This document shows positions 24,111-52,896 of a stretch of DNA of 64,000 nucleotides, piece by piece. Origin of the DNA: a virus (taxonomy: Duplodnaviria; Caudoviricetes); the IMG/VR virus record IMGVR_UViG_3300021978_000001, positions 96,001 to 160,000 of that record; one strand, 5' to 3'. Each line of letters opens with the position of its first letter. The first letter of the stretch is position 1. Made by a program: the position numbers and the translations under genes. A model generated the notes under the pieces. It saw nothing but the letters and a program-made list of their open reading frames with translations, ran no database searches and had not been told where the DNA came from.

Positions 24111-24213
24111 ATGTGTGATGGAAGGTGTCTTCTAGTGTTTGCCGGACCAGAAGCAAGCGTATAAGCCAAAGCAAAGTACGATTCACCTTCCACCACAAAG
24201 GTGGAGACAGATA

Positions 24214-24241
24214 GGTACATCCCCGCAGGTGCGGGGAGCCT
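24214..24241 (-). CRISPR. solitary, diverged I-E-like repeat
   Basis: AGGCTCCCCGCACCTGCGGGGATGTACC; CCCCGC-N4-GCGGGG hairpin in the same register as the array repeat. Confidence 0.6.
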
Positions 24242-24459
24242 CCAACCTGATTCCTGTCCCGGCATCTCCGGCTTCCCTGGACAGGATGAACGTACCTTAC
24301 CCCAATGTTGGGAGCGTTGTCAAGCTGACCTACGCATTTTACTGTACCAACCCGAGTTTTTTCAGTTGGTGGCCTTGTGTCGCGGCCAACGCGTCTCGTT
24401 CCTCGGGGGTCATGCGCGCCCAAAAGCCTCGACCCTGATCCTTGAACTCGTGCATGGGG

Positions 24460-26600: not shown

Positions 26601-27308
26601 TCAGTTCGATAAAAACTGATCTTTTTGTCGAACGATCTCGCGCGCGATATGCACCGCGAACGCCACCGGCTTGATCACCTTGCACCCATAACGGGGCGAT
26701 TCGGAGAGCATCTCAGGGTCGTACTCATTGAGGCACTCATAGAACTTGTCCTCGCTGTCGATCGCGTGCCACAGCTCGAACCAATCAGGCTCGGAAAGCT
26801 CCTCCTCTTCGTCCAACTCCTCGCCCTCTTCGAGATCATCGAGCAGTTCCTTGTGTGCGGCAACCTCGTGATCCCACCAATCCAGGATGTCATGCGCGGC
26901 GAGCTGTCCGTCATATGCATAGGGAGAGCGCACGGGGTTGTTCCCACAGTGATACTTCTCTTCGAGGTAGCGACCCCATGCATGCTGGTCGATGAAGCGC
27001 GCGGCATCCCAGACATCCGTGCCGCGATACCGGAAACGCATGCAGCCAAACGACCAGGTATCGACGTAGATGTAGCCGTTCTTGATGTAGAACTCGCTTC
27101 CGGTCGAGAGAGATCCCTGTGAGAGCGTGATCACGGTCCCGTATGGGCCTTCCTTGACCTTGGTGATGGGGTACTCGCCTTGAAAGGTCGGGAGCACTTC
27201 AGCGTCCGCGTGCGAGCGCAGGCGGGTGAGGTATTCATTCTCGGACATACATAACTCCTGAACGCAGATGAAACGTAAAAACGGCGTGTCGAACAAGGGG
27301 TGGGTCAT
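26601..27308 (-). CDS. hypothetical protein
   Basis: 235-aa ORF with GGAGG RBS. Confidence 0.65.
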   Translation of the reverse strand: MTHPLFDTPFLRFICVQELCMSENEYLTRLRSHADAEVLPTFQGEYPITKVKEGPYGTVITLSQGSLSTGSEFYIKNGYIYVDTWSFGCMRFRYRGTDVWDAARFIDQHAWGRYLEEKYHCGNNPVRSPYAYDGQLAAHDILDWWDHEVAAHKELLDDLEEGEELDEEEELSEPDWFELWHAIDSEDKFYECLNEYDPEMLSESPRYGCKVIKPVAFAVHIAREIVRQKDQFLSN

Positions 27309-27374
27309 GGATAAAGCCTCCAGGAATTTCTGCCTGGCTTCGCCTTACACGCAGAGTGGCTACGTGTAAGGTAT

Positions 27375-27485
27375 AGGAGGTTGCACGGGATTGAACCGTG
27401 CTATCGCTCATGTCAGCCCGAAGGCACCACGCGCGAATTATCCGAGAACCATAAACCCGGCATTTCGACACGCCGTTTGGTCTCC
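27375..27485 (-). ncRNA. tRNA-like structured RNA of unknown class
   Basis: Ends in T-arm CACGG-TTCAATC-CCGTG then ACCTCC; several hairpins including GCC-TTCG-GGC; no standard cloverleaf. Confidence 0.4.
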
Positions 27486-27514
27486 TGAATGTCGATGTGG
27501 TTGCATGCGAGGCG

Positions 27515-27542
27515 GGACCATCCCCTCATACGAGGGGAACAT
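27515..27542 (-). CRISPR. solitary I-E-like repeat with compensatory stem change
   Basis: ATGTTCCCCTCGTATGAGGGGATGGTCC (CCCCTC/GAGGGG stem). Confidence 0.8.
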
Positions 27543-27578
27543 ATTTCTCGCACCATTCGCAATGGAGACCGTTCTCAG

Positions 27579-27650
27579 TGGAGCTTGAGAGACTCGAACT
27601 CTCAATTCAACCTTGCAAAAGTCGTGTGATCCCAGTTTCACCAAAGCCCC
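27579..27650 (-). tRNA. tRNA-Ala(TGC)
   Basis: Cloverleaf, G3:U70. Confidence 0.9.
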
Positions 27651-27654
27651 AAAA

Positions 27655-27737
27655 GAAGTGAGGGTGGTCAAGGTGGTGCATATGGGGGTCCTTGTTTGCT
27701 ATAAGATAACCCATGTGCGGCATACCACCCCCACTTC
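27655..27737 (-). ncRNA. hairpin cassette copy 1, near-empty
   Basis: GGTATGCCGCACATGGGTTATC-about 15 nt-ACCCCCATATGCACCACCTTG within an outer stem. Confidence 0.6.
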
Positions 27738-27762
27738 TGACATCTTCCTGGGAAGAAGATAG

Positions 27763-27835
27763 TGGAGCCAGGGGGTCTCGAACCCCCGACCTCGACGCTG
27801 CCAGCGTCGCGCTCTCCCAACTGAGCTATGGCCCC
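27763..27835 (-). tRNA. tRNA-Ala(GGC)
   Basis: Canonical cloverleaf. Confidence 0.95.
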
Positions 27836-27855
27836 GTTCGTACTATGAACGCCCC

Positions 27856-28218
27856 TCAACCGAGGGTCATTTCCCCATCACAGAGTTCGTCGATCAGCGC
27901 ATCGAGTTCCAGGGGGACTTTGCCCTCATAGAACTCGATGCGCCTTTCCTGACCGACAGCATCTCTCCACACCACCTGGTATCTCATACCATCACAGATA
28001 GAGAAACCAGGTGGAATCGGAATCTTGGGGTCGATAGGTGGAGGAAGGGTGAGAGTTTCGAGGCCCTCACCCTGGTCCAATATACCTTCCAACCGTTCAA
28101 GCATCTGGAGAGATGCAGGAGAGAGGTTCGTCTTGAGCGAAGAAAAGGTCTGCTTCAAGAGAGGAAACAACCCGCCTTCGCGGATGTACTGCACTTGAAG
28201 ATGCTTGTCTTTGCTCAT
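27856..28218 (-). CDS. hypothetical protein
   Basis: ORF between RNA genes. Confidence 0.5.
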   Translation of the reverse strand: MSKDKHLQVQYIREGGLFPLLKQTFSSLKTNLSPASLQMLERLEGILDQGEGLETLTLPPPIDPKIPIPPGFSICDGMRYQVVWRDAVGQERRIEFYEGKVPLELDALIDELCDGEMTLG

Positions 28219-28240
28219 CAGTTGAACCTCGCTATGTAAA

Positions 28241-28379
28241 TCTGAGCCGAACAAGGTGTGGATCTGGGGGTTTAGCGTGCTACCATTACACTACCCTGGG
28301 GGTTAACCCAGGGCCGGGACTCGAACCCGGACCGCCTGATTTGCATTCAGATAACCCATCTCCGGCATCTCGGCTCAGA
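28241..28379 (-). tRNA. circularly permuted tRNA-Cys(GCA) (28275-28350) inside hairpin cassette
   Basis: Order: anticodon arm, T arm, CCCTGGG, TTAACC, CCCAGGG, D arm; U73; joining restores C27-G43. Confidence 0.8.
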
Positions 28380-28407
28380 ACTGTGCTCTCTCTTGTTACG
28401 AGAGAAG

Positions 28408-28736
28408 ATCAAAGGTGTGTCCACCAAGGCTGCACCCGAGTAAGGGTATATAGGTGGCATCGTTGTGTGGCCGCCGTCTACGCGCCAACTCGTGGCCTAT
28501 CGCCGTGGAGAAGGTTCGCGCACCGGGCTGGCGGGCGCCCTCATGATCGAGATTGCTCTCGACCTTAGCCTTGAGCCTTCGTGGGGAAGGGACTCTCAAG
28601 GGAGGGTGAGCTTGGCCTGACAGGTGTAACCTCGATAGGAGACTACCCCGTTTCGCTAGACCCCTCACGGGGATTCACTACCTTCGGACCGTTATTGGGA
28701 TAACCCACCTACGGCAGCTCAGGCACAGCTCTTGAT
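28408..28736 (-). ncRNA. hairpin cassette enclosing an about 249-nt structured RNA (28451-28699)
   Basis: GCTGCCGTAGGTGGGTTATC 5' arm, TATACCC 3' arm; GNRA hairpins inside. Confidence 0.6.
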
Positions 28737-28825
28737 GAACACACCTTTGGAGACCTCGGAGCTTCCGAGCGCGCACCACCCCGCTAAAGATAAAGCGGCT
28801 CGGTGCTCCGAGATCCCAAAGAAAA

Positions 28826-28891
28826 GTCACGGTCAAAGTGATGTATATGGAATATTCTATCTCCGATAATCCATACACGGCATACCGTAAC
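28826..28891 (-). ncRNA. hairpin cassette, near-empty copy
   Basis: GTTACGGT-ATGCCG-TGTATGGATTATC-short loop-TATTCCATATACA-TCACTTTG-ACCGTGAC. Confidence 0.55.
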
Positions 28892-28892
28892 A

Positions 28893-28973
28893 AGCGAGCG
28901 ACGGGACTCGAACCCGCATGCGTTAAAGCGACAGCTTGGAAGGCTGTTGTCCGACCAGTTGGACCTCACTCGC
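28893..28973 (-). tRNA. tRNA-Gly(TCC) with unusually long variable region
   Basis: ACAGC-CTTCCAA-GCTGT, U73, 13-nt variable region. Confidence 0.8.
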
Positions 28974-29172
28974 GCATACTCGTCTCTCCGAGCTGTCACC
29001 CGGTCTGTCCCAGGTTCGTCATGCGTCACACTCTCGGGCCGCATCGCCGCACGAGGGGATCTTCAGATCGCGTGACCCCTCGTGAATCACATGCGACCTC
29101 CGGCGTCTGGTCTCGCCGGGCCACGGGATTGTGCACGCGCATCTGCGCGGATGGAATCCTCGGGCGTCAGGT

Positions 29173-29315
29173 ATTGCGTGGTCAAACGGAGCGTAACAGG
29201 AGTGTTGACTCGTGCTCTGCCGGTTGAGCTAGAAGTGCCACTCGTCATGACACAACCCGGGACTCGAACCCGGAACCACAAGTTTGGATAACCCTATCAC
29301 TGCATACCACGCAAT
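29173..29315 (-). tRNA. degenerate circularly permuted tRNA (Gly/His-like) in hairpin cassette
   Basis: T arm precedes D arm; acceptor has 2 mismatches; anticodon loop would be non-standard. Confidence 0.55.
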
Positions 29316-29437
29316 CATGGTCCTTCTCCCTAAGATCTCCCTGAGAAGAAGGTTTGGGTTGGATGAACCTCTCACTGACACCTTGATCGACCGAAATTGA
29401 CGACAACGACAGACAAGAGGATGAGAGGTTCATCCAG

Positions 29438-29512
29438 CGACTCCTACGGGATTTGAACCCGTGGTCTCCTGCGTGACAGGCAGGCGTCCACTCCAGACTG
29501 GACCGAGGAGCC
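29438..29512 (-). tRNA. tRNA-Asp(GTC)
   Basis: Canonical cloverleaf, G73. Confidence 0.93.
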
Positions 29513-29589
29513 GAAAGTGCTCTATCCGAGCGCTTTTGTATGATACCATGGAAACCTTATCCTGGAAACCAAGGTAGCGTCAAGTACCA

Positions 29590-29661
29590 ATCCGGGAGCA
29601 GGGCTCGAACCTGCATTGCGAGGATCAAAACCTCGTGTCCTGCCAATTAGACGATCCCGGA
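29590..29661 (-). tRNA. tRNA-Gln(TTG)
   Basis: Canonical cloverleaf. Confidence 0.93.
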
Positions 29662-29720
29662 GTAATCGTGGCCCAAGCACTGCTTCGTGCAGTGAACATC
29701 CCGAGTGCTTGAGCCACGAT

Positions 29721-29924
29721 TCACGCATGTTCGGTGCCCGTGGCTTCCTCGATAAACGAGGAAATCACATGACGTTGAACCACCGCGTGGGGTGTCGCTT
29801 GTGACTGTGACCACACCTCGATAGTGCTCATCGAAACCTCGAAACGATCGGCAAGCTCTCTGCTGCTATGCAATTCTCGCAAGTAATGCAAGGCGAACAG
29901 GAAGAGTTTATGCGTCTCATTCAT
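29721..29924 (-). CDS. small HTH protein
   Basis: SSRELADRFEVSMSTIEVW helix-turn-helix pattern. Confidence 0.6.
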   Translation of the reverse strand: MNETHKLFLFALHYLRELHSSRELADRFEVSMSTIEVWSQSQATPHAVVQRHVISSFIEEATGTEHA

Positions 29925-30007
29925 CGAAACCTCGATCAGTGTCGTGTCGAGTGCAGGGTCCGAAGTCAGCGAACACCGCTTCTCCCTGCACGAGCAGGGA
30001 AGATAGA

Positions 30008-30152
30008 GTACACCGGATAAGGGATGAGAGTGGATGTTTTTGGCGCTTTACCACTAAGCTACACAGCCGTAAACGATGGCTGTGGGTTGGAATCGAACCA
30101 ACCGATCTCCCCGTTAAGAGCGGATAACCCACGGCTCTTCAGCCCGATGTAC
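30008..30152 (-). tRNA. circularly permuted tRNA-Lys(CTT) (30042-30123) inside hairpin cassette
   Basis: CCG-CTCTTAA-CGGGG, T arm, CACAGCC-A-TCGTTTAC-GGCTGTG, D arm, GCC; joining gives a perfect 5-bp anticodon stem. Confidence 0.85.
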
Positions 30153-30154
30153 AG

Positions 30155-30227
30155 TACCACAGGTGGGGGTCGAACCCACAACATCCTGGTTTTGAACCAA
30201 GCGCCTCTTCCATTGGGCCACTGTGGC
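30155..30227 (-). tRNA. tRNA-Leu(CAA), short variable loop
   Basis: CTTGG-TTCAAAA-CCAGG; 5-nt variable region. Confidence 0.75.
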
Positions 30228-30421
30228 AGGCGGAGTTGCATACGTCAAGGGTTTTCTGCTGGGCAGGATCGCCACCGTCGTGGATGGATCTGCCTGACCT
30301 TTACACCTATGCAACAACCCTGGAGTTCCCATCTCTCCGGTCTCTACGCGTCGTCACGCACCCTGTAGGAGCTACCCCACAAGATACAGCCTCGTGACGT
30401 GTGAGGCTACGCGCTGGGAAA

Positions 30422-30494
30422 TCGACATGCCAGGACTCGAACCTGGACCACCTCTTTCGTAGAGAGGCACTCTATCCAATTAAGTTACACGTCG
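30422..30494 (-). tRNA. tRNA-Arg(ACG)
   Basis: Canonical cloverleaf. Confidence 0.92.
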
Positions 30495-30609
30495 AGAATG
30501 CCTCCCAGTGTACGGTGTCGAGCACACCGAGAGGACTTTTCACTGTGGTCGTCGAGCGATCTCAGTGAGAGCGTTATGCCACACCTTACGAGAAGGTGTC
30601 AAGACAATT

Positions 30610-30825
30610 TCATTTTTTCTTGAGGTCAGCGTCGGTGAGGCTCTTTTTCTGCCAAGCCGCCTCTTCCTCTTTAGCGCATCGCTTGCTGTACCGCCACGCG
30701 ATGGCATGGTCAATACGATCAAGCTCCTCACGCTCCTCGACGGTCAAGGTGCCTTGTGCTTCGAGCGCACGTTGTTGAGCTTTGAGCCTTTCGATGTGTT
30801 TCCGATCTGCATCTTCATCAGTCAT
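30610..30825 (-). CDS. hypothetical protein
   Basis: GAGG RBS, helical composition. Confidence 0.5.
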   Translation of the reverse strand: MTDEDADRKHIERLKAQQRALEAQGTLTVEEREELDRIDHAIAWRYSKRCAKEEEAAWQKKSLTDADLKKK

Positions 30826-30944
30826 GCTTACCTCGTCTGAAAAGTACCCTGCCGTAAGTTCGCTTCTCATGCGCCCTCGTCTTAAAGGCGCACAGAATAC
30901 CCCTCCCCAGAGGTAAAGTTTAGAATGATGAACCCGACAGGGTA

Positions 30945-31017
30945 TAGCGGGTGAGGGAATCGAACCCCCAACTGTAGGTCATGAGCCTACCGAGATATAC
31001 CGTTTCTCCAACCCGCA
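30945..31017 (-). tRNA. tRNA-Met(CAT), 1:72 mismatch (initiator-like)
   Basis: GTAGG-CTCATGA-CCTAC. Confidence 0.88.
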
Positions 31018-31051
31018 ACAAATGAGTGTGCTGTTCCTGTGCCCCGGCGCC

Positions 31052-31195
31052 GGACCATCCCCGCATACGCGGGGAACACGCTCCACAACACACTCGGGCG
31101 CCTGGGTATACCCACGACGCAGATCCGCTTGACGGTGGAGCGACAGGCGGAAGTGGTACGGCAAGGCGAACCATCCCCGCGCACGCGGGGAACAT
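31052..31195 (-). CRISPR. two I-E-like repeats (31052-31079, 31168-31195) separated by 88 nt, between tRNA-Ile and tRNA-Met
   Basis: Near-identical to the array repeat. Confidence 0.85.
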
Positions 31196-31235
31196 GGACC
31201 TCACGGATGCATCGACGCGAGATCTCACCATACCA

Positions 31236-31309
31236 TAGCTGGACGCGGACTCGAACCGCGAACCTCAGCCTTATCAAGACTGCGCTCTAACCTGTTGAGC
31301 TATCCAGCT
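31236..31309 (-). tRNA. tRNA-Ile(GAT)
   Basis: Canonical cloverleaf. Confidence 0.93.
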
Positions 31310-31313
31310 TCAA

Positions 31314-31387
31314 GTGCTTGCCCCTGGACTCGCACCAGGATCTCTCGCGTGATGGCGAGCAGGTTACATACGGCTACCATGGATACC
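31314..31387 (-). pseudogene. degenerate tRNA-like sequence
   Basis: CCTGG-TGCGAGT-CCAGG T-arm, 6-nt anticodon loop, poor acceptor pairing. Confidence 0.45.
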
Positions 31388-31406
31388 TTGACCCCAGACA
31401 AGCAAG

Positions 31407-31555
31407 TGTACATGAATCGAACAAGGTAGTGAGCAAGGGGTTTTTACGAGTGCTACCGTTACACCACATGTCCGGGTGGACATGCTGGGACTCGAACCCA
31501 GACCACGCGCTCCGCTGGCGATAACCCTTATCTCGGTCATCTCGATTCATGTACA
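31407..31555 (-). tRNA. circularly permuted tRNA-Arg(GCG) (31447-31520) inside hairpin cassette
   Basis: CGC-CAGCGGA-GCGCG, T arm, CATGTCC-ACCC-GGACATG, D arm, TCG; joining gives a perfect CGCGC/GCGCG stem. Confidence 0.8.
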
Positions 31556-31556
31556 G

Positions 31557-31630
31557 TAGGGCTGACAGGAGTCGAACCTGCGACCATCTCCGTGTAAGGA
31601 AGCTGCTCTGACCAACTGAGCTACAGCCCT
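31557..31630 (-). tRNA. tRNA-Val(TAC)
   Basis: Canonical cloverleaf. Confidence 0.9.
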
Positions 31631-31666
31631 GTGATGTGCTTGCTCGGATAAGGGAAGTGGCGAGCG

Positions 31667-31757
31667 GCGCCATCCCCGCATGCGCGGGGAACACTAAATC
31701 TGAACAAACACAAGCAGAGCGCCCGAGATGAACCATCCCAGCATATGCAGGGAAATC
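31667..31757 (-). CRISPR. repeat-spacer-repeat unit (31667-31694 and degenerate 31730-31757, 35-nt spacer) upstream of tRNA-Val
   Basis: GTGTTCCCCGCGCATGCGGGGATGGCGC plus a degenerate copy. Confidence 0.75.
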
Positions 31758-31839
31758 AACGTATGCCTTTCGCGCTCTGTGGTGAAAGGTAGCTGGGTAC
31801 CGTTGACTCTCCCGTAGGAGCGGCCCCTGCTTGCCTCTC

Positions 31840-31960
31840 ACGCTTTGTTATGCGTGCGTTCCTATTCACTTGTCAAAGATCTTGAGTCGTTGGCGTTGTG
31901 CGTTGCACCGTCGCCGTGACATCAACCGTTATGCCTTGTTCAAATCATGCTGTCAAGCAT
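31840..31960 (-). promoter_or_regulatory. tandem TTGACA...CATAAC promoters heading the tRNA/ncRNA cluster
   Basis: TTGACA-N17-CATAAC near 31928-31956 and TTGACA-N18-CATAAC near 31846-31875. Confidence 0.6.
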
Positions 31961-32009
31961 TTTCTTCCTGAACCGGGCAAAAAGTTCGATCGGAGTGCAT
32001 CCGATCCAG

Positions 32010-32086
32010 AGCAGCCAGTGGGAATCGAACCCACAACCTCCTCGGGACCATCACCACAGATGTGGTGAAAATTGAGCCATGGCTGC
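32010..32086 (-). ncRNA. tRNA-CRISPR repeat chimera
   Basis: Acceptor GCAGCCA/TGGCTGC and intact T arm; the D/anticodon region is a 28-nt repeat variant at 32045-32072. Confidence 0.75.
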
Positions 32087-32165
32087 TTGCTCGTGAAGGG
32101 CGTTGCCGTTCACGAGAGACACAACTAGGTGACGTGGAGAGTTATTCCACACCACCACGCGCGTG

Positions 32166-32771
32166 TCAAACGTTCTGTGGGAATTGAGCCAGGAGATCCT
32201 GATCCTGACCTGCAACACGCTGAACAGGGATGGCCGTAAACGTGGACCGCAGGCTCGCCGCGTAAGGCGTCTCGACCAGGAATTGGTATGCAGGCGCACA
32301 CTTGATCGACTTCTGATCGCCCACACGTTGGCATTCGATCACGATGTCCTTTCCGACGCGGTTGGTGACCGAGGCGACACGCTCGACCTTCCCGACCTGC
32401 AACCCCGCACCCATCACGCGATCATCCGTCACGACCTTGCGCGCGATCTTGGTGACGTAGAACAACCCTTCAGCGTCGAGGAAGAGCGCCGCCATGCGGT
32501 CCTCGAAAGCGCTCTTACAGGAACTCTTGCGGTGATGGGAAAACGCACATTCGAGCTTGCGCAAACCATACACCACACCAAAGCCATCACCTTGGTGCGC
32601 GTACTTGACGAGGATGGCGCACGCTTCCTGAATAGCCTTGCGGGTCTCTCCCGCCGAAGAGGAGACCCACGCGTCTACTTGCGTGGCAAGGGTATGTGCC
32701 TGGAGAAAGTAGGAGAGCGCGGTTTGGGGAACGATGATCGCGGACATGATAGACACCTCGTGGTCAGTCAA
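32166..32771 (-). CDS. hypothetical protein
   Basis: Promoter motif at 32808-32836. Confidence 0.6.
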   Translation of the reverse strand: MTDHEVSIMSAIIVPQTALSYFLQAHTLATQVDAWVSSSAGETRKAIQEACAILVKYAHQGDGFGVVYGLRKLECAFSHHRKSSCKSAFEDRMAALFLDAEGLFYVTKIARKVVTDDRVMGAGLQVGKVERVASVTNRVGKDIVIECQRVGDQKSIKCAPAYQFLVETPYAASLRSTFTAIPVQRVAGQDQDLLAQFPQNV

Positions 32772-44750: not shown

Positions 44751-44823
44751 CCGGGGCGACAGGACTCGAACCTGCGACCTCTTGATTCGGAATCAAGTGC
44801 TCATCCAACTGAGCTACGCCCCG
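44751..44823 (-). tRNA. tRNA-Arg(CCG)
   Basis: Canonical cloverleaf. Confidence 0.93.
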
Positions 44824-44826
44824 AAG

Positions 44827-44900
44827 CGAGGGTGGCAGGACTCGAACCCGCACCGCCGTGGTTAGAAGCCACGCATCCTATCCGGTTGGACCACACCCTC
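44827..44900 (-). tRNA. tRNA-Arg(TCT)
   Basis: Canonical cloverleaf. Confidence 0.93.
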
Positions 44901-47271: not shown

Positions 47272-47330
47272 GCAGGAACCCTGTGCTATTGGACCTTGTA
47301 ATACTGGACCGTGTGATCTGTGATTTAGAG

Positions 47331-47404
47331 AGGTGAAGGTGGGAGTCGAACCCACAACAAACCAGGGTTGCAATCTGGCGCCCCGCCACCGGGACATCTT
47401 CACC
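47331..47404 (-). tRNA. tRNA-Cys(GCA)
   Basis: Loop TTGCAAC, U73; atypical D arm. Confidence 0.75.
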
Positions 47405-47437
47405 TCAGCATGGCGTGATCAGGAAAACCAGCCAAAG

Positions 47438-52805: not shown

Positions 52806-52896
52806 AGAGCCGGGTGGGACTCGAACCCACGACATACCGCTTAAAAGGCGGATAGGACCATCCCCGCATGTGCGAGGAACAATAGCCCCACCCGGC
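52806..52896 (-). ncRNA. tRNA-Lys(TTT)-CRISPR repeat chimera
   Basis: Repeat TTGTTCCTCGCACATGCGGGGATGGTCC (52855-52882) in place of the D arm, followed by CCGC-CTTTTAA-GCGG, T arm and acceptor 3' strand. Confidence 0.75.

What the first reader, a model, noticed from the sequence alone, without database searches (positions are those of the whole stretch)
28241..28379. Permuted tRNA-Cys(GCA), junction at position 27/28
Minus strand: GGGTTAT / CTGA ATGCAAA TCAGG CGGT CCGGG TTCGAGT CCCGG CCCTGGG TTAACC CCCAGGG TA GTGT AATGGTA GCAC G C / TAAACCCCC. The GCA anticodon and U73 discriminator agree, both being CysRS identity elements (established), which suggests selection for a chargeable tRNA. A32 is atypical and a linear tRNA-Cys exists at 47331.
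Basis: seen in the sequence. Interest (0 to 1): 0.8.

Follow-up and report, generated by a model that had tools for sequence, protein, structure and literature searches.

The report
Phage Y RNA mimicking a tRNA
The "back-to-front tRNA-Cys" is really in the sequence, but it is a YrlA-type Y RNA, a small RNA whose paired ends dock the phage's own Ro60 protein while its middle imitates a whole tRNA; this class is already known from Ro60-encoding phages and bacteria.

Summary
On the minus strand of 28241-28379 the order is anticodon-like hairpin, T arm, closed 7-bp acceptor-like hairpin, D arm. Re-joined in silico, ARAGORN calls it tRNA-Cys(GCA).

The interpretation, a permuted gene ligated into a chargeable tRNA, is not supported.
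- The element is a full-length match to Rfam YrlA (Y RNA-like). It scores like the YrlA-model hits beside the Ro genes of phages Cali and Cashline.
- A model built from it alone recovers those YrlAs.
- Its flanks form a Y-RNA-type (Ro60-binding-like) stem.
- The 437-kb phage encodes Ro60 (TROVE plus vWA_Ro60).
- 16 of 19 viral records with homologues also encode Ro60, including all 7 that are at least 90% complete.
- The "anticodon" triplet varies freely among homologues.
- There is no bulge-helix-bulge motif at the junction.
- I found no RtcB, Rnl1, Rnl2 or splicing endonuclease in the phage.

The window holds four such tRNA-like Y RNAs and at least four simpler ones, interleaved with tRNA genes about 171 kb from the Ro60 gene.

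One nuance may be new. The hairpin that the literature calls the "V arm" carries a strict anticodon-loop signature (U33, R37, A38) across phage YrlAs.

This scan has met the class many times, including a sibling copy in this window. New member of a known kind.

The parts
28241..28379 (-). Whole element B: a YrlA-type Y RNA of 139 nt, the finding itself.
   Evidence: It is a full-length match to Rfam YrlA RF02553 (positions 1-114, 32.3 bits, E 2e-5). It scores 136 bits against the family model R2.
28370..28379 (-). Basal stem, 5' strand UCUGAGCCGA. It contains GAGCCGA, the Ro60-contact-type motif (compare GNCGAA in YrlA and GGUCCGA in animal Y RNA).
   Evidence: All 10 pairs of this helix show compensatory changes in 33 homologues. 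The motif is described in PMC4201824.
28241..28250 (-). Basal stem, 3' strand UCGGCUCAGA.
28358..28369 (-). 5' arm of the conserved internal loop, GAUGCCGGAGAU. An AUGCCG-type block is shared with paralogues A, D, G and H (with a substitution in D); F has AUGACCG.
   Evidence: It aligns to positions 8-15 of the YrlA model, AUGCuugg.
28251..28267 (-). 3' arm of the internal loop, ending in CACACCUUGU. This is the CUUG motif found opposite the Ro60 site in Y RNAs.
   Evidence: It aligns to positions 98-104 of the YrlA model, AaAcUuG. It is conserved in paralogues and homologues.
28351..28357 (-). GGGUUAU. GGGUU pairs with AACCC at 28268-28272. UUAU is the conserved YUAY of YrlA that precedes the V arm.
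   Evidence: The YUAY motif is described in PMC4201824.
28336..28350 (-). Anticodon-arm-like hairpin CUGA-AUGCAAA-UCAG. It corresponds to the 'V arm' of published YrlA. G28335 pairs in trans with C28275 to complete a 5-bp stem.
   Evidence: The trans pair covaries in homologues (GC 19, CG 5, AU 4). The loop signature is U33 in 32/36, R37 in 34/36 and A38 in 32/36.
28314..28330 (-). T arm CCGGG-UUCGAGU-CCCGG.
28294..28313 (-). Acceptor-like stem of 7 bp (CCCUGGG/CCCAGGG), closed by the loop UUAACC. There is no free CCA end.
   Evidence: All 7 pairs covary and 97.7% of cells are paired.
28277..28293 (-). The U8-A9 linker followed by the D arm GUGU-AAUGGUA-GCAC, with G18 and G19 in the loop.
29173..29315 (-). 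Paralogue D: a tRNA-like Y RNA with a 6-nt loop in its V hairpin. It is not called a tRNA when re-permuted in silico.
   Evidence: R2 gives 53.9 bits.
30008..30152 (-). Paralogue E: a tRNA-like Y RNA with loop CUCUUAA (CUU). It starts 2 nt after tRNA-Leu.
   Evidence: R2 gives 92.9 bits.
31408..31554 (-). Paralogue F: a tRNA-like Y RNA with loop CAGCGGA (GCG, with A at position 33). It starts 2 nt after tRNA-Val.
   Evidence: Rfam YrlA gives 24.8 bits. R2 gives 99.3 bits.
27661..27733 (-). Paralogue A: a minimal Y RNA with the same basal module and only a small hairpin as cargo.
   Evidence: It scores 28.9 bits against Rfam RF01656 (nematode sRNA ceN72-3/ceN74-2; from memory, sbRNAs are Y-RNA homologues), and 33 bits against R1.
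28826..28892 (-). Paralogue G: a minimal Y RNA that directly follows tRNA-Gly.
   Evidence: It scores 34.2 bits against Rfam RF01656 (gathering score 38).
27283..27474 (-). Paralogue H: a 192-nt Y-like RNA. Its basal stem is GGCGUGUCGAA/UUCGACACGCC, followed by AUGCCGG, and it has an internal T-arm-like hairpin.
   Evidence: R1 gives 22.8 bits.
28413..28745 (-). Paralogue C: a structured RNA of about 330 nt closed by a long stem. It has the same 5' arm (UGCCG-N5-GGGUUAUC) and a large cargo that is not tRNA-like.
   Evidence: Fold energy is -152.9 kcal/mol with z -5.9. No Rfam family matched at E<1.

Best explanation
The element is one of at least eight Y RNA genes of a 437-kb phage that carries its own Ro60 (Rsr) protein.

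Proposed mechanism:
1. It is transcribed on the minus strand together with the surrounding tRNA genes.
2. It is probably released by the tRNA-processing nucleases. Several paralogues abut tRNA ends.
3. Its 5' and 3' ends pair into a long basal stem. The internal loop of that stem (5' GAGCCGA/AUGCCG, 3' CACCUUG) is the docking site for the Ro60 ring.
4. The distal part folds into an L-shaped tRNA mimic. It has a T-loop/D-loop elbow, a closed 7-bp acceptor-like stem, and a hairpin that imitates the anticodon arm.
5. As in known Ro60-Y RNA particles, the mimic would act as the effector-binding or gating module. It would tether Ro60 to a tRNA-binding partner or an exoribonuclease such as host PNPase.

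Shown here: the sequence and structure, homology to YrlA, conservation and covariation of the helices, and co-occurrence with Ro60.
Inferred: transcription and processing, Ro60 binding, the partner, and the role in infection.
For: 1. Rfam. The best hit is YrlA, covering the model end to end including both flanks (32.3 bits, E 2e-5). The YrlA-model hits beside the Ro genes of Mycobacterium phage Cali and Gordonia phage Cashline score about the same (36.1 and 42.2 bits). The sub-threshold score is therefore normal for phage members.

2. Homology. Covariance model R1 was built from this one sequence. It finds the Cali and Cashline YrlAs full-length (51.1, 50.5 and 40.8 bits). It also finds further full-length copies within about 4 kb of the Ro genes in five other cultured actinophages.

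3. Ro60 in the same genome. G000:C1 about 295265-296911 (+) encodes a protein with TROVE (143 bits) and vWA_Ro60 (203 bits) domains. It is 43-45% identical to annotated phage Ro-like proteins.

4. Co-occurrence. 16 of 19 viral records holding homologues encode TROVE, including 7 of 7 records that are at least 90% complete. Only 371 of 50,697 phage records do so overall. In about ten of these records the RNA lies within roughly 5 kb of the gene, by coordinate comparison.

5. Shared basal module. Seven other RNAs in the window carry the same basal module with unrelated cargo. Two of them hit RF01656, the nematode sRNA ceN72-3/ceN74-2 model; from memory, not checked here, nematode sbRNAs are regarded as Y-RNA homologues.

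6. Covariation. It supports every helix, including the trans pair that completes the anticodon-like stem.

7. Published YrlA anatomy matches: a GNCGAA-like 5' motif, YUAY before a V hairpin, a T arm, a closed acceptor stem, UA, then a D arm (PMC4201824; 10.1101/312249).
Against: - The Rfam score is below the family's gathering score (32.3 against 69).
- The 5' motif reads GCCGAG rather than the published GNCGAA.
- In this phage the RNAs lie about 171 kb from the Ro60 gene and on the other strand. Chen et al. found YrlA within 4 kb of the gene and on the same strand.
- Nothing shows expression, ends or binding.
- The function of the tRNA-like domain is unknown even in the model organisms.
Confidence: 0.88

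Rival explanations
1. It is a true permuted tRNA-Cys gene. The precursor is cut at the leader and trailer, the ends at 27/28 are ligated, the acceptor loop is opened by RNase P and 3' processing, CCA is added, and the product is charged with cysteine.
For: - The in-silico re-joined sequence is a canonical cloverleaf tRNA-Cys(GCA) with U73.
- Two paralogues likewise give tRNA-Lys(CUU) and tRNA-Arg(GCG).
- The anticodon-loop signature is conserved in the family.
- The phage's other tRNA-Cys is atypical, with a tRNA-Sec-like shape.
Against: - The flanks form a 5-bp helix with a 2x2 internal loop. They do not form a helix/3-nt bulge/4-bp helix/3-nt bulge motif.
- The flanks match the flank positions of the Rfam YrlA model and are shared with RNAs that are not tRNA-like.
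- No RtcB, tRNA-splicing endonuclease or Rnl2 was found in the complete phage genome. The Rnl1 search also found nothing, but its control rang nowhere, so it is uninformative.
- The triplet changes freely between close homologues. L071 has GCA and L040 has UGA on the same CUUU/AAAG stem.
- The discriminator is not coupled to the triplet.
- The acceptor stem is 5-10 bp in homologues, by a parse that allows one mismatch.
- Paralogue F has A33 and paralogue D has a 6-nt loop.
- Homologues track Ro60 genes.
Confidence: 0.03
2. It is a Y RNA that is additionally processed like M. smegmatis YrlA. RNase P cuts in the acceptor loop and CCA is added. This gives a two-piece RNA held together by the basal stem, which might even be aminoacylated while bound to Ro60.
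For: - The acceptor-like stem is exactly 7 bp. That is the feature Chen et al. link to RNase P cleavage and in-vivo CCA addition of M. smegmatis YrlA (PMC4201824).
- All tRNA core nucleotides are present: U8, A14, G18, G19, U54-U55-C56, A58 and A15:U48.
- Paralogue F has ACCC closing its stem.
Against: - Stem length is not held at 7 bp in the family.
- The B loop, UUAACC, encodes no CCA.
- S. Typhimurium YrlA and D. radiodurans Yrn1 are not cleaved (PMC4201824).
- There are no RNA data.
Confidence: 0.07
3. It is a decaying remnant of a tandem tRNA duplication in the array and has no function of its own.
For: - It sits in a tRNA array.
- The model that YrlA arose from dimeric tRNA transcripts is discussed in 10.1101/312249.
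- Dimeric tRNAs score weakly with the YrlA-type models, for example window 44766-44890.
Against: - All helices are kept by compensatory change across distant phages.
- The flanks are conserved and shared among paralogues.
- The re-joined B is not especially similar to the phage's own tRNA-Cys or to any other of its tRNAs.
Confidence: 0.02

Closest known systems
YrlA (Y RNA-like A, Rfam RF02553) of Ro60-encoding phages, e.g. cluster C mycobacteriophages (ET08 in Chen et al. 2014; Cali examined here) and Gordonia phage Cashline
   Same: - The same order of modules: a basal stem with a GNCGAA-type motif, YUAY, a hairpin, a T arm, a closed acceptor stem, UA, a D arm and a CUUG-type 3' arm.
- They are found reciprocally by models.
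- The Cali copy also has a composite 5-bp stem and the 7-nt loop AUUGCAA.
- In both cases Ro60 is encoded in the same genome.
   Different: - Here there are four tRNA-like and at least four other Y RNAs, instead of one or two.
- They are interleaved with tRNA genes and lie about 171 kb from the Ro60 gene on the other strand, rather than within 4 kb on the same strand.
- The D stem is GUGU/GCAC rather than GCUC/GAGC.
- The 5' motif is GCCGAG.
M. smegmatis YrlA and S. Typhimurium YrlA (Chen et al. 2014, PMC4201824; structure PDB 6CU1, Wang et al. 2018, 10.1101/312249)
   Same: - An L-shaped tRNA mimic tethered to a Ro60-binding stem.
- A 7-bp acceptor-like stem, as in M. smegmatis YrlA, which is cut by RNase P and receives CCA.
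- The conserved tertiary-interaction nucleotides.
   Different: - The S. Typhimurium RNA has no hairpin at this place and is described as lacking an anticodon loop. Here the hairpin has a full anticodon-loop signature.
- Binding, modification and processing are shown for those RNAs and not for this one.
Thermus phage phiLo phiRo60 with Yrl1/Yrl2 (PMC12135203)
   Same: It is a phage-encoded Ro60 with several phage-encoded Y-like RNAs. A proposed Ro60-Y RNA-host PNPase complex was demonstrated in vitro.
   Different: As described in the text read here, Yrl1 and Yrl2 are stem-bulge-stem RNAs found next to the gene. No tRNA-like domain is mentioned.
Circularly permuted tRNA genes of Cyanidioschyzon merolae, some green algae and Thermofilum (recalled from memory, not read here)
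   Same: The 3' half lies upstream of the 5' half, the acceptor stem is closed by a loop, and re-joining gives a complete cloverleaf.
   Different: Those precursors carry a bulge-helix-bulge motif that is cut by the splicing endonuclease and then ligated through a circular intermediate. Here there is no such motif and no such enzymes in the phage, the triplet is not conserved, and the flanks resemble a Ro60-binding (Y RNA) stem.

Membership tests
YrlA-type Y RNA (Rfam RF02553; Chen et al. 2014) | The 5' and 3' ends pair into a stem that carries a Ro60-contact motif (GNCGAA(N)G near the 5' end). | tested here: met
   The 10-bp basal stem contains GAGCCGA followed by GAUGCCGG. It aligns to model positions 1-15 and 98-114, and all 10 pairs covary. 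One deviation: the motif reads GCCGAG rather than GNCGAA.
YrlA-type Y RNA (Rfam RF02553; Chen et al. 2014) | A conserved T arm lies upstream of a conserved D arm, with a closed 'acceptor' stem-loop between them and UA before the D arm. | tested here: met
YrlA-type Y RNA (Rfam RF02553; Chen et al. 2014) | A conserved YUAY precedes a less conserved hairpin (V) upstream of the T arm. | tested here: met
   UUAU at 28351-28354 is followed by the hairpin at 28336-28350. The description is in PMC4201824.
YrlA-type Y RNA (Rfam RF02553; Chen et al. 2014) | The nucleotides for tRNA tertiary interactions are present, including a 15:48 Levitt pair. | tested here: met
   By inspection: U8, A14, A15:U48, G18, G19, U54, U55, C56 and A58.
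YrlA-type Y RNA (Rfam RF02553; Chen et al. 2014) | The score reaches Rfam's gathering threshold (69 bits). | tested here: not met
   The score is 32.3 bits. The YrlA-model hits beside the Ro genes of phages Cali and Cashline also score only 36.1 and 42.2 bits, so phage members in general appear to fail this threshold.
YrlA-type Y RNA (Rfam RF02553; Chen et al. 2014) | A Ro60/Rsr (TROVE) protein is encoded in the same genome. | tested here: met
   Among relatives it is present in 16 of 19 records, and in 7 of 7 that are at least 90% complete.
YrlA-type Y RNA (Rfam RF02553; Chen et al. 2014) | The RNA is encoded within about 4 kb of the Ro60 gene and on the same strand. | tested here: not met
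   Here it is about 171 kb away and on the opposite strand. The feature is met in many smaller relatives.
YrlA-type Y RNA (Rfam RF02553; Chen et al. 2014) | The RNA is physically bound by Ro60. | not testable with these tools
   This needs RNA immunoprecipitation or a gel-shift assay.
Circularly permuted tRNA gene (spliced and ligated) | The 3' half lies upstream of the 5' half, and re-joining gives a full cloverleaf. | tested here: met
   ARAGORN calls the re-joined sequence tRNA-Cys(GCA).
Circularly permuted tRNA gene (spliced and ligated) | A bulge-helix-bulge (or relaxed) motif is formed by the leader and trailer at the junction. | tested here: not met
   The GGGUU/AACCC helix has a symmetric 2x2 loop (AU/UA) next to the nick. 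There are no 3-nt bulges spaced by 4 bp.
Circularly permuted tRNA gene (spliced and ligated) | A splicing endonuclease and an RNA ligase are available. | tested here: inconclusive
   PF01974, PF01139 and PF09414 were not found in the complete phage genome. The PF09511 search also found nothing, but its control rang nowhere. The host is unknown and may have RtcB.
Circularly permuted tRNA gene (spliced and ligated) | The anticodon and identity elements are conserved among orthologues. | tested here: not met
   The triplet is nearly random across 36 homologues. U73 is not coupled to GCA.
Circularly permuted tRNA gene (spliced and ligated) | A ligated or circular RNA product exists. | not testable with these tools
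   No run on record as RNA was listed as holding the stretch.

The most novel reading that the evidence does not exclude
In phage YrlA RNAs the hairpin that the literature calls the 'V arm' is a selected mimic of the anticodon arm. It has a composite 5-bp stem completed in trans, a 7-nt loop with U33, R37 and A38, and a free triplet. These Y RNAs would then be whole-tRNA mimics with different 'anticodons' in different paralogues.

A phage carrying four of them, plus four other Y RNAs, may use them in one of two ways:
- as decoys or sensors for anticodon-directed host nucleases or anticodon-loop enzymes;
Probability: 0.15. Interest if true: 0.6.

Novelty: new member of a known kind. Interest (0 to 1): 0.33.

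Why it matters
- **Annotation.** It removes a tempting false lead, permuted tRNA splicing in a bacteriophage, and names the element correctly. tRNA finders call these RNAs as tRNAs. ARAGORN does so here at 28306-28380. Annotated 'tRNA-Arg(tct)', 'tRNA-Leu(gag)', 'tRNA-Ser(cga)' and 'tRNA-OTHER' features in four cultured phages overlap YrlA-type hits. Phage tRNA inventories are therefore inflated in Ro60-encoding phages.
- **Biology.** A single phage with at least eight Y RNAs built on one docking stem, with different distal modules, is a rich natural set. It could be used to ask what the tRNA-like domain of Y RNAs recruits, which is still unknown.
- **Possible handle.** The anticodon-loop signature of the so-called V arm, if it holds, gives that question a concrete starting point.

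Tried and rejected
- **Expression data.** Two look-ups of public runs listed no holder on record as RNA. The junction test therefore could not be made from public data.
- **Close relatives among cultured phages.** Megablast of 27500-32500 against the phage collection gave no match.
- **Splice motif or ribozyme.** The CUGAUGAG just downstream at about 28218 is the ribosome-binding region and start codon of the next ORF, not a hammerhead core. No ribozyme family appeared in the Rfam E-value scans.
- **Recent descent from the phage's own tRNAs.** The re-joined B is not especially similar to the phage's tRNA-Cys, nor E to its tRNA-Lys.
- **Further tRNA-like copies.** A descriptor scan and models R1 and R2 found no further tRNA-like copies elsewhere in the 437-kb genome. 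The next-best R2 hit is the adjacent tRNA-Arg pair at 44766-44890, the known dimeric-tRNA false-positive type.
- **Candidate at 24164-24273.** It has a Y-like 5' arm but contains a CRISPR-repeat-like hairpin, so I left it out of the count.
- **Small ORFs in the array.** PHROG searches gave nothing informative.
- **Promoters and terminators.** The scan did not exceed shuffles in a useful way.
- **Alignment and model building.** Three build calls failed on a typing slip.
- **Reviews.** Two Wolin-lab reviews (PMC10870794, PMC6047535) are not held.
Full report
**What is there.**

The window is bases 96001-160000 of a 437,490-bp IMG/VR virus record with direct terminal repeats, estimated complete. 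Its minus strand carries a long array of tRNA genes.

- a 10-bp basal stem (UCUGAGCCGA ... UCGGCUCAGA);
- a leader ending in GGGUUAU;
- a hairpin CUGA-AUGCAAA-UCAG;
- a 4-nt linker;
- a T arm;
- a 7-bp acceptor-like stem closed by UUAACC;
- UA;
- a D arm;
- G-C;
- a trailer beginning UAAACCC.

RNAfold recovers these helices. If the two halves are joined at position 27/28 in silico, ARAGORN calls a canonical tRNA-Cys(GCA).

**It is not alone.**

A BLAST of the element against its own genome found a 69%-identical copy at 31408-31554. A descriptor scan for 'T arm, closed acceptor hairpin, D arm' found four such elements in the whole genome, all in this window and all on the minus strand. These are B 28241-28379, D 29173-29315, E 30008-30152 and F 31408-31554. 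A family covariance model scores them at 136, 54, 93 and 99 bits respectively, and the next hit is a pair of adjacent tRNA-Arg genes. Re-joined E and F are called tRNA-Lys(CUU) and tRNA-Arg(GCG). D is not called.

**What the flanks are.**

An Rfam E-value scan gave YrlA (RF02553, 'Y RNA-like') as the best match. It covers the model end to end, leader and trailer included, at 32.3 bits and E 2e-5. That is below the family's gathering score of 69. However, the YrlA-model hits just upstream of the Ro genes of Mycobacterium phage Cali and Gordonia phage Cashline score only 36.1 and 42.2 bits.

The published anatomy of YrlA (Chen et al. 2014, PMC4201824) is this:
- a 5' GNCGAA-type motif thought to contact Ro60;
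- a conserved YUAY;
- a less conserved hairpin called V;
- a nearly invariant T arm;
- a closed 'acceptor' stem;
- UA;
- a nearly invariant D arm.

B has each of these in that order: GAGCCGA/GAUGCCGG, UUAU, the hairpin, and so on.

The same basal module (5' AUGCCG-type block ... GGRUUAU; 3' ... CACCUUG) closes at least four further RNAs in the window that carry other cargo:
- A, 27661-27733, and G, 28826-28892, are minimal hairpins. They hit Rfam RF01656, a nematode sRNA model; from memory, not checked here, nematode sbRNAs are regarded as Y-RNA homologues.
- H, 27283-27474, has a T-arm-like hairpin.
- C, about 28413-28745, is a 330-nt structured RNA.

One docking stem with variable distal modules is the Y RNA design.

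**The protein partner.**

The phage encodes a 548-aa protein at about G000:C1:295265-296911 (+). It has TROVE (143 bits) and Ro60-type vWA (203 bits) domains. It is 43-45% identical to annotated Ro-like proteins of Gordonia and cluster C mycobacteriophages.

**Homologues.**

A pattern scan of IMG/VR, followed by a search with a covariance model built from B alone, found dozens of full-length homologues. Two or three often sit in tandem. The same model finds the Cali and Cashline YrlAs (51, 50 and 41 bits). It also finds copies within about 4 kb of the Ro genes of Rhodococcus phage Trina, Microbacterium phages Magritte and Big4, Gordonia phage Mareelih and Streptomyces phage Faust.

Of 19 viral records holding homologues, 16 encode TROVE, including all 7 that are at least 90% complete. 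The three without it are fragments. Only 371 of 50,697 phage records have a TROVE match.

Comparing coordinates, the RNA lies within about 5 kb of the gene in roughly ten of these records, which is the published arrangement. In the huge phages, this one included, the RNAs sit far from the Ro60 gene; in this phage they lie in the tRNA array.

On 33 homologues every helix is supported. 94% of cells are paired, against 63% in shuffles and about 45% in slid controls, and 31 of 36 pairs show compensatory change. That alignment was fitted to the model, so it leans towards the structure.

**Why it is not a spliced permuted tRNA.**

1. The leader and trailer form a 5-bp helix with a symmetric 2x2 loop beside the nick. 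This is not a bulge-helix-bulge motif.
2. The complete phage genome has no match to RtcB, tRNA-splicing endonuclease or Rnl2. The Rnl1 search also found nothing, but its control rang nowhere. The host is unknown, so this is weak evidence.
3. The 'anticodon' is not conserved. Homologues carry GCA, UGA, GUU, GAU, GUG, UUU, CUU, GUC, UGG, UCG, GCU and others. L071 (GCA) and L040 (UGA) differ only in the triplet on the same CUUU/AAAG stem.
4. U73 does not travel with GCA; L030 has G there. Acceptor-like stems range from 5 to 10 bp, by a parse that allows one mismatch in stems of 7 bp or more.
5. Paralogue F has A33 and paralogue D has a 6-nt loop.
6. The elements track Ro60.

But kept pairing is equally expected of YrlA.

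**A nuance that may be new.**

I anchored on the T arm and asked only for a 5-bp stem, with cis pairs plus up to 3 trans pairs contributed by the nucleotides after the D arm, and a 7-nt loop. Among 47 candidate tRNA-like elements in the metagenomic loci, 35 gave a 7-nt-loop parse and 28 of those had all 5 pairs. I then parsed 10 full-length R1 hits from cultured phages, most of them within a few kb of the Ro gene, and 8 gave the same architecture.

In these 36 loops:
- position 33 is U in 32;
- position 37 is a purine in 34;
- position 38 is A in 32;
- position 32 is almost never G (1 of 36);
- positions 34-36 are close to random.

The loop letters played no part in the parse. The nominal binomial P values overstate significance because the sequences are related, and a few of the 28 parses look spurious.

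The single trans pair in B (G28335-C28275) covaries in the family (GC 19, CG 5, AU 4). The hairpin that Chen et al. call the variable arm therefore behaves as an anticodon-arm mimic in phage YrlAs. Wang et al. describe S. Typhimurium YrlA as lacking an anticodon loop. None of the abstracts of the eight held papers that mention both YrlA and anticodon states this signature, and I read the text of only two of them.

This fits the idea that YrlA arose from tandem tRNA transcripts (10.1101/312249). It also leaves open that the loop is recognised by something. It explains why tRNA finders call these RNAs as tRNAs. ARAGORN does so here, and annotated tRNA features in Magritte, Mareelih, Big4 and Trina overlap YrlA-type hits.

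**How it most likely works.**

- Shown: the fold, the homology to YrlA, and the Ro60 co-occurrence.
- Inferred: the RNA is co-transcribed with the tRNA array. Its ends may be set partly by tRNA processing, since E, F and G start within 0-2 nt of an upstream tRNA's end and A ends 10 nt before the next tRNA. The basal stem binds the phage Ro60. The tRNA-like module gates Ro60 or tethers it to a partner.
- Known precedents are the Ro60-Y RNA-PNPase particles of Deinococcus and Salmonella, and of Thermus phage phiLo in vitro (PMC4201824; PMC12135203).

**Standing.**

Phage-encoded Ro60 and YrlA are known. Chen et al. list 22 phages, and a later paper names mycobacteriophages, CcrColossus and Bacillus phage G. 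A subset of jumbo phages is noted to carry TROVE proteins (PMC7824862).

This scan has also met the class many times. An independent follow-up of sibling copy E in this window reached the same reading (e1-5379110). I reached mine before seeing it.

The case is a new member of a known kind. It is notable for the number of paralogues (at least eight), their interleaving with tRNA genes, and their distance from the Ro60 gene.

Noticed in passing
window 47330-47406 (-): The phage's 'linear tRNA-Cys(GCA)' has a tRNA-Sec-like shape, with a 9-bp acceptor stem and a 6-bp D stem with a 4-nt loop. It scores 36.8 bits against the Rfam tRNA-Sec model and did not reach the gathering score of the ordinary tRNA model. 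It looks like the Sec-shaped tRNAs with a Cys anticodon described in the literature (recalled from memory, not checked).
   Followed up: partly
window 52806-52870 (-): A weak tRNA hit (30.5 bits) has a Lys-like anticodon arm (CUUUUAA) and a T arm. Its 5' part is a hairpin, GUUCCUCGCACAUGCGGGGAUG, that looks like a type I-E CRISPR repeat. This resembles the CRISPR-repeat tRNA already noted at 32010-32086.
   Followed up: partly
window 24164-24273 (-): Just upstream of the amber-suppressor tRNA there is a Y-like 5' arm (AGCCGGAGAUGCCGGG) followed by a CRISPR-repeat-like hairpin (CUCCCCGCACCUGCGGGGAUG). It is unclear whether this is a ninth Y RNA.
   Followed up: partly
window 28413-28745 (-): A structured RNA of about 330 nt (fold z -5.9) is closed by a 27-bp stem and has the same 5' arm as the Y RNAs. 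No Rfam family matched at E<1. It contains GGUCCGAAGGUAGUGA, which as far as I recall is identical to the Ro60-binding 5' strand of human Y1 RNA (from memory, not checked).
   Followed up: partly
L129:3437-3513, L124:6655-6743, L127:1071-1138, L126:3655-3863: Annotated tRNA features in four cultured phages overlap full-length YrlA-type hits. They are tRNA-Arg(tct) in Magritte, tRNA-Leu(gag) in Mareelih, tRNA-Ser(cga) in Big4 and a pseudo 'tRNA-OTHER' in Trina. They are probably mis-called Y RNAs.
   Followed up: partly
L124-L130 (cultured actinophages): In these large actinophages the Ro-like gene sits inside the tRNA (and, in Mareelih, tmRNA) gene cluster, so linkage of Ro60, Y RNA and the tRNA array is common. 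In this 437-kb phage the protein gene has moved away while the RNAs stayed in the array.
   Followed up: no
window 28306-28380 (-): ARAGORN's 'tRNA-Cys, anticodon at position 37' is a false call. It is made from the Y RNA's hairpin and T arm with a spurious acceptor stem.
   Followed up: yes
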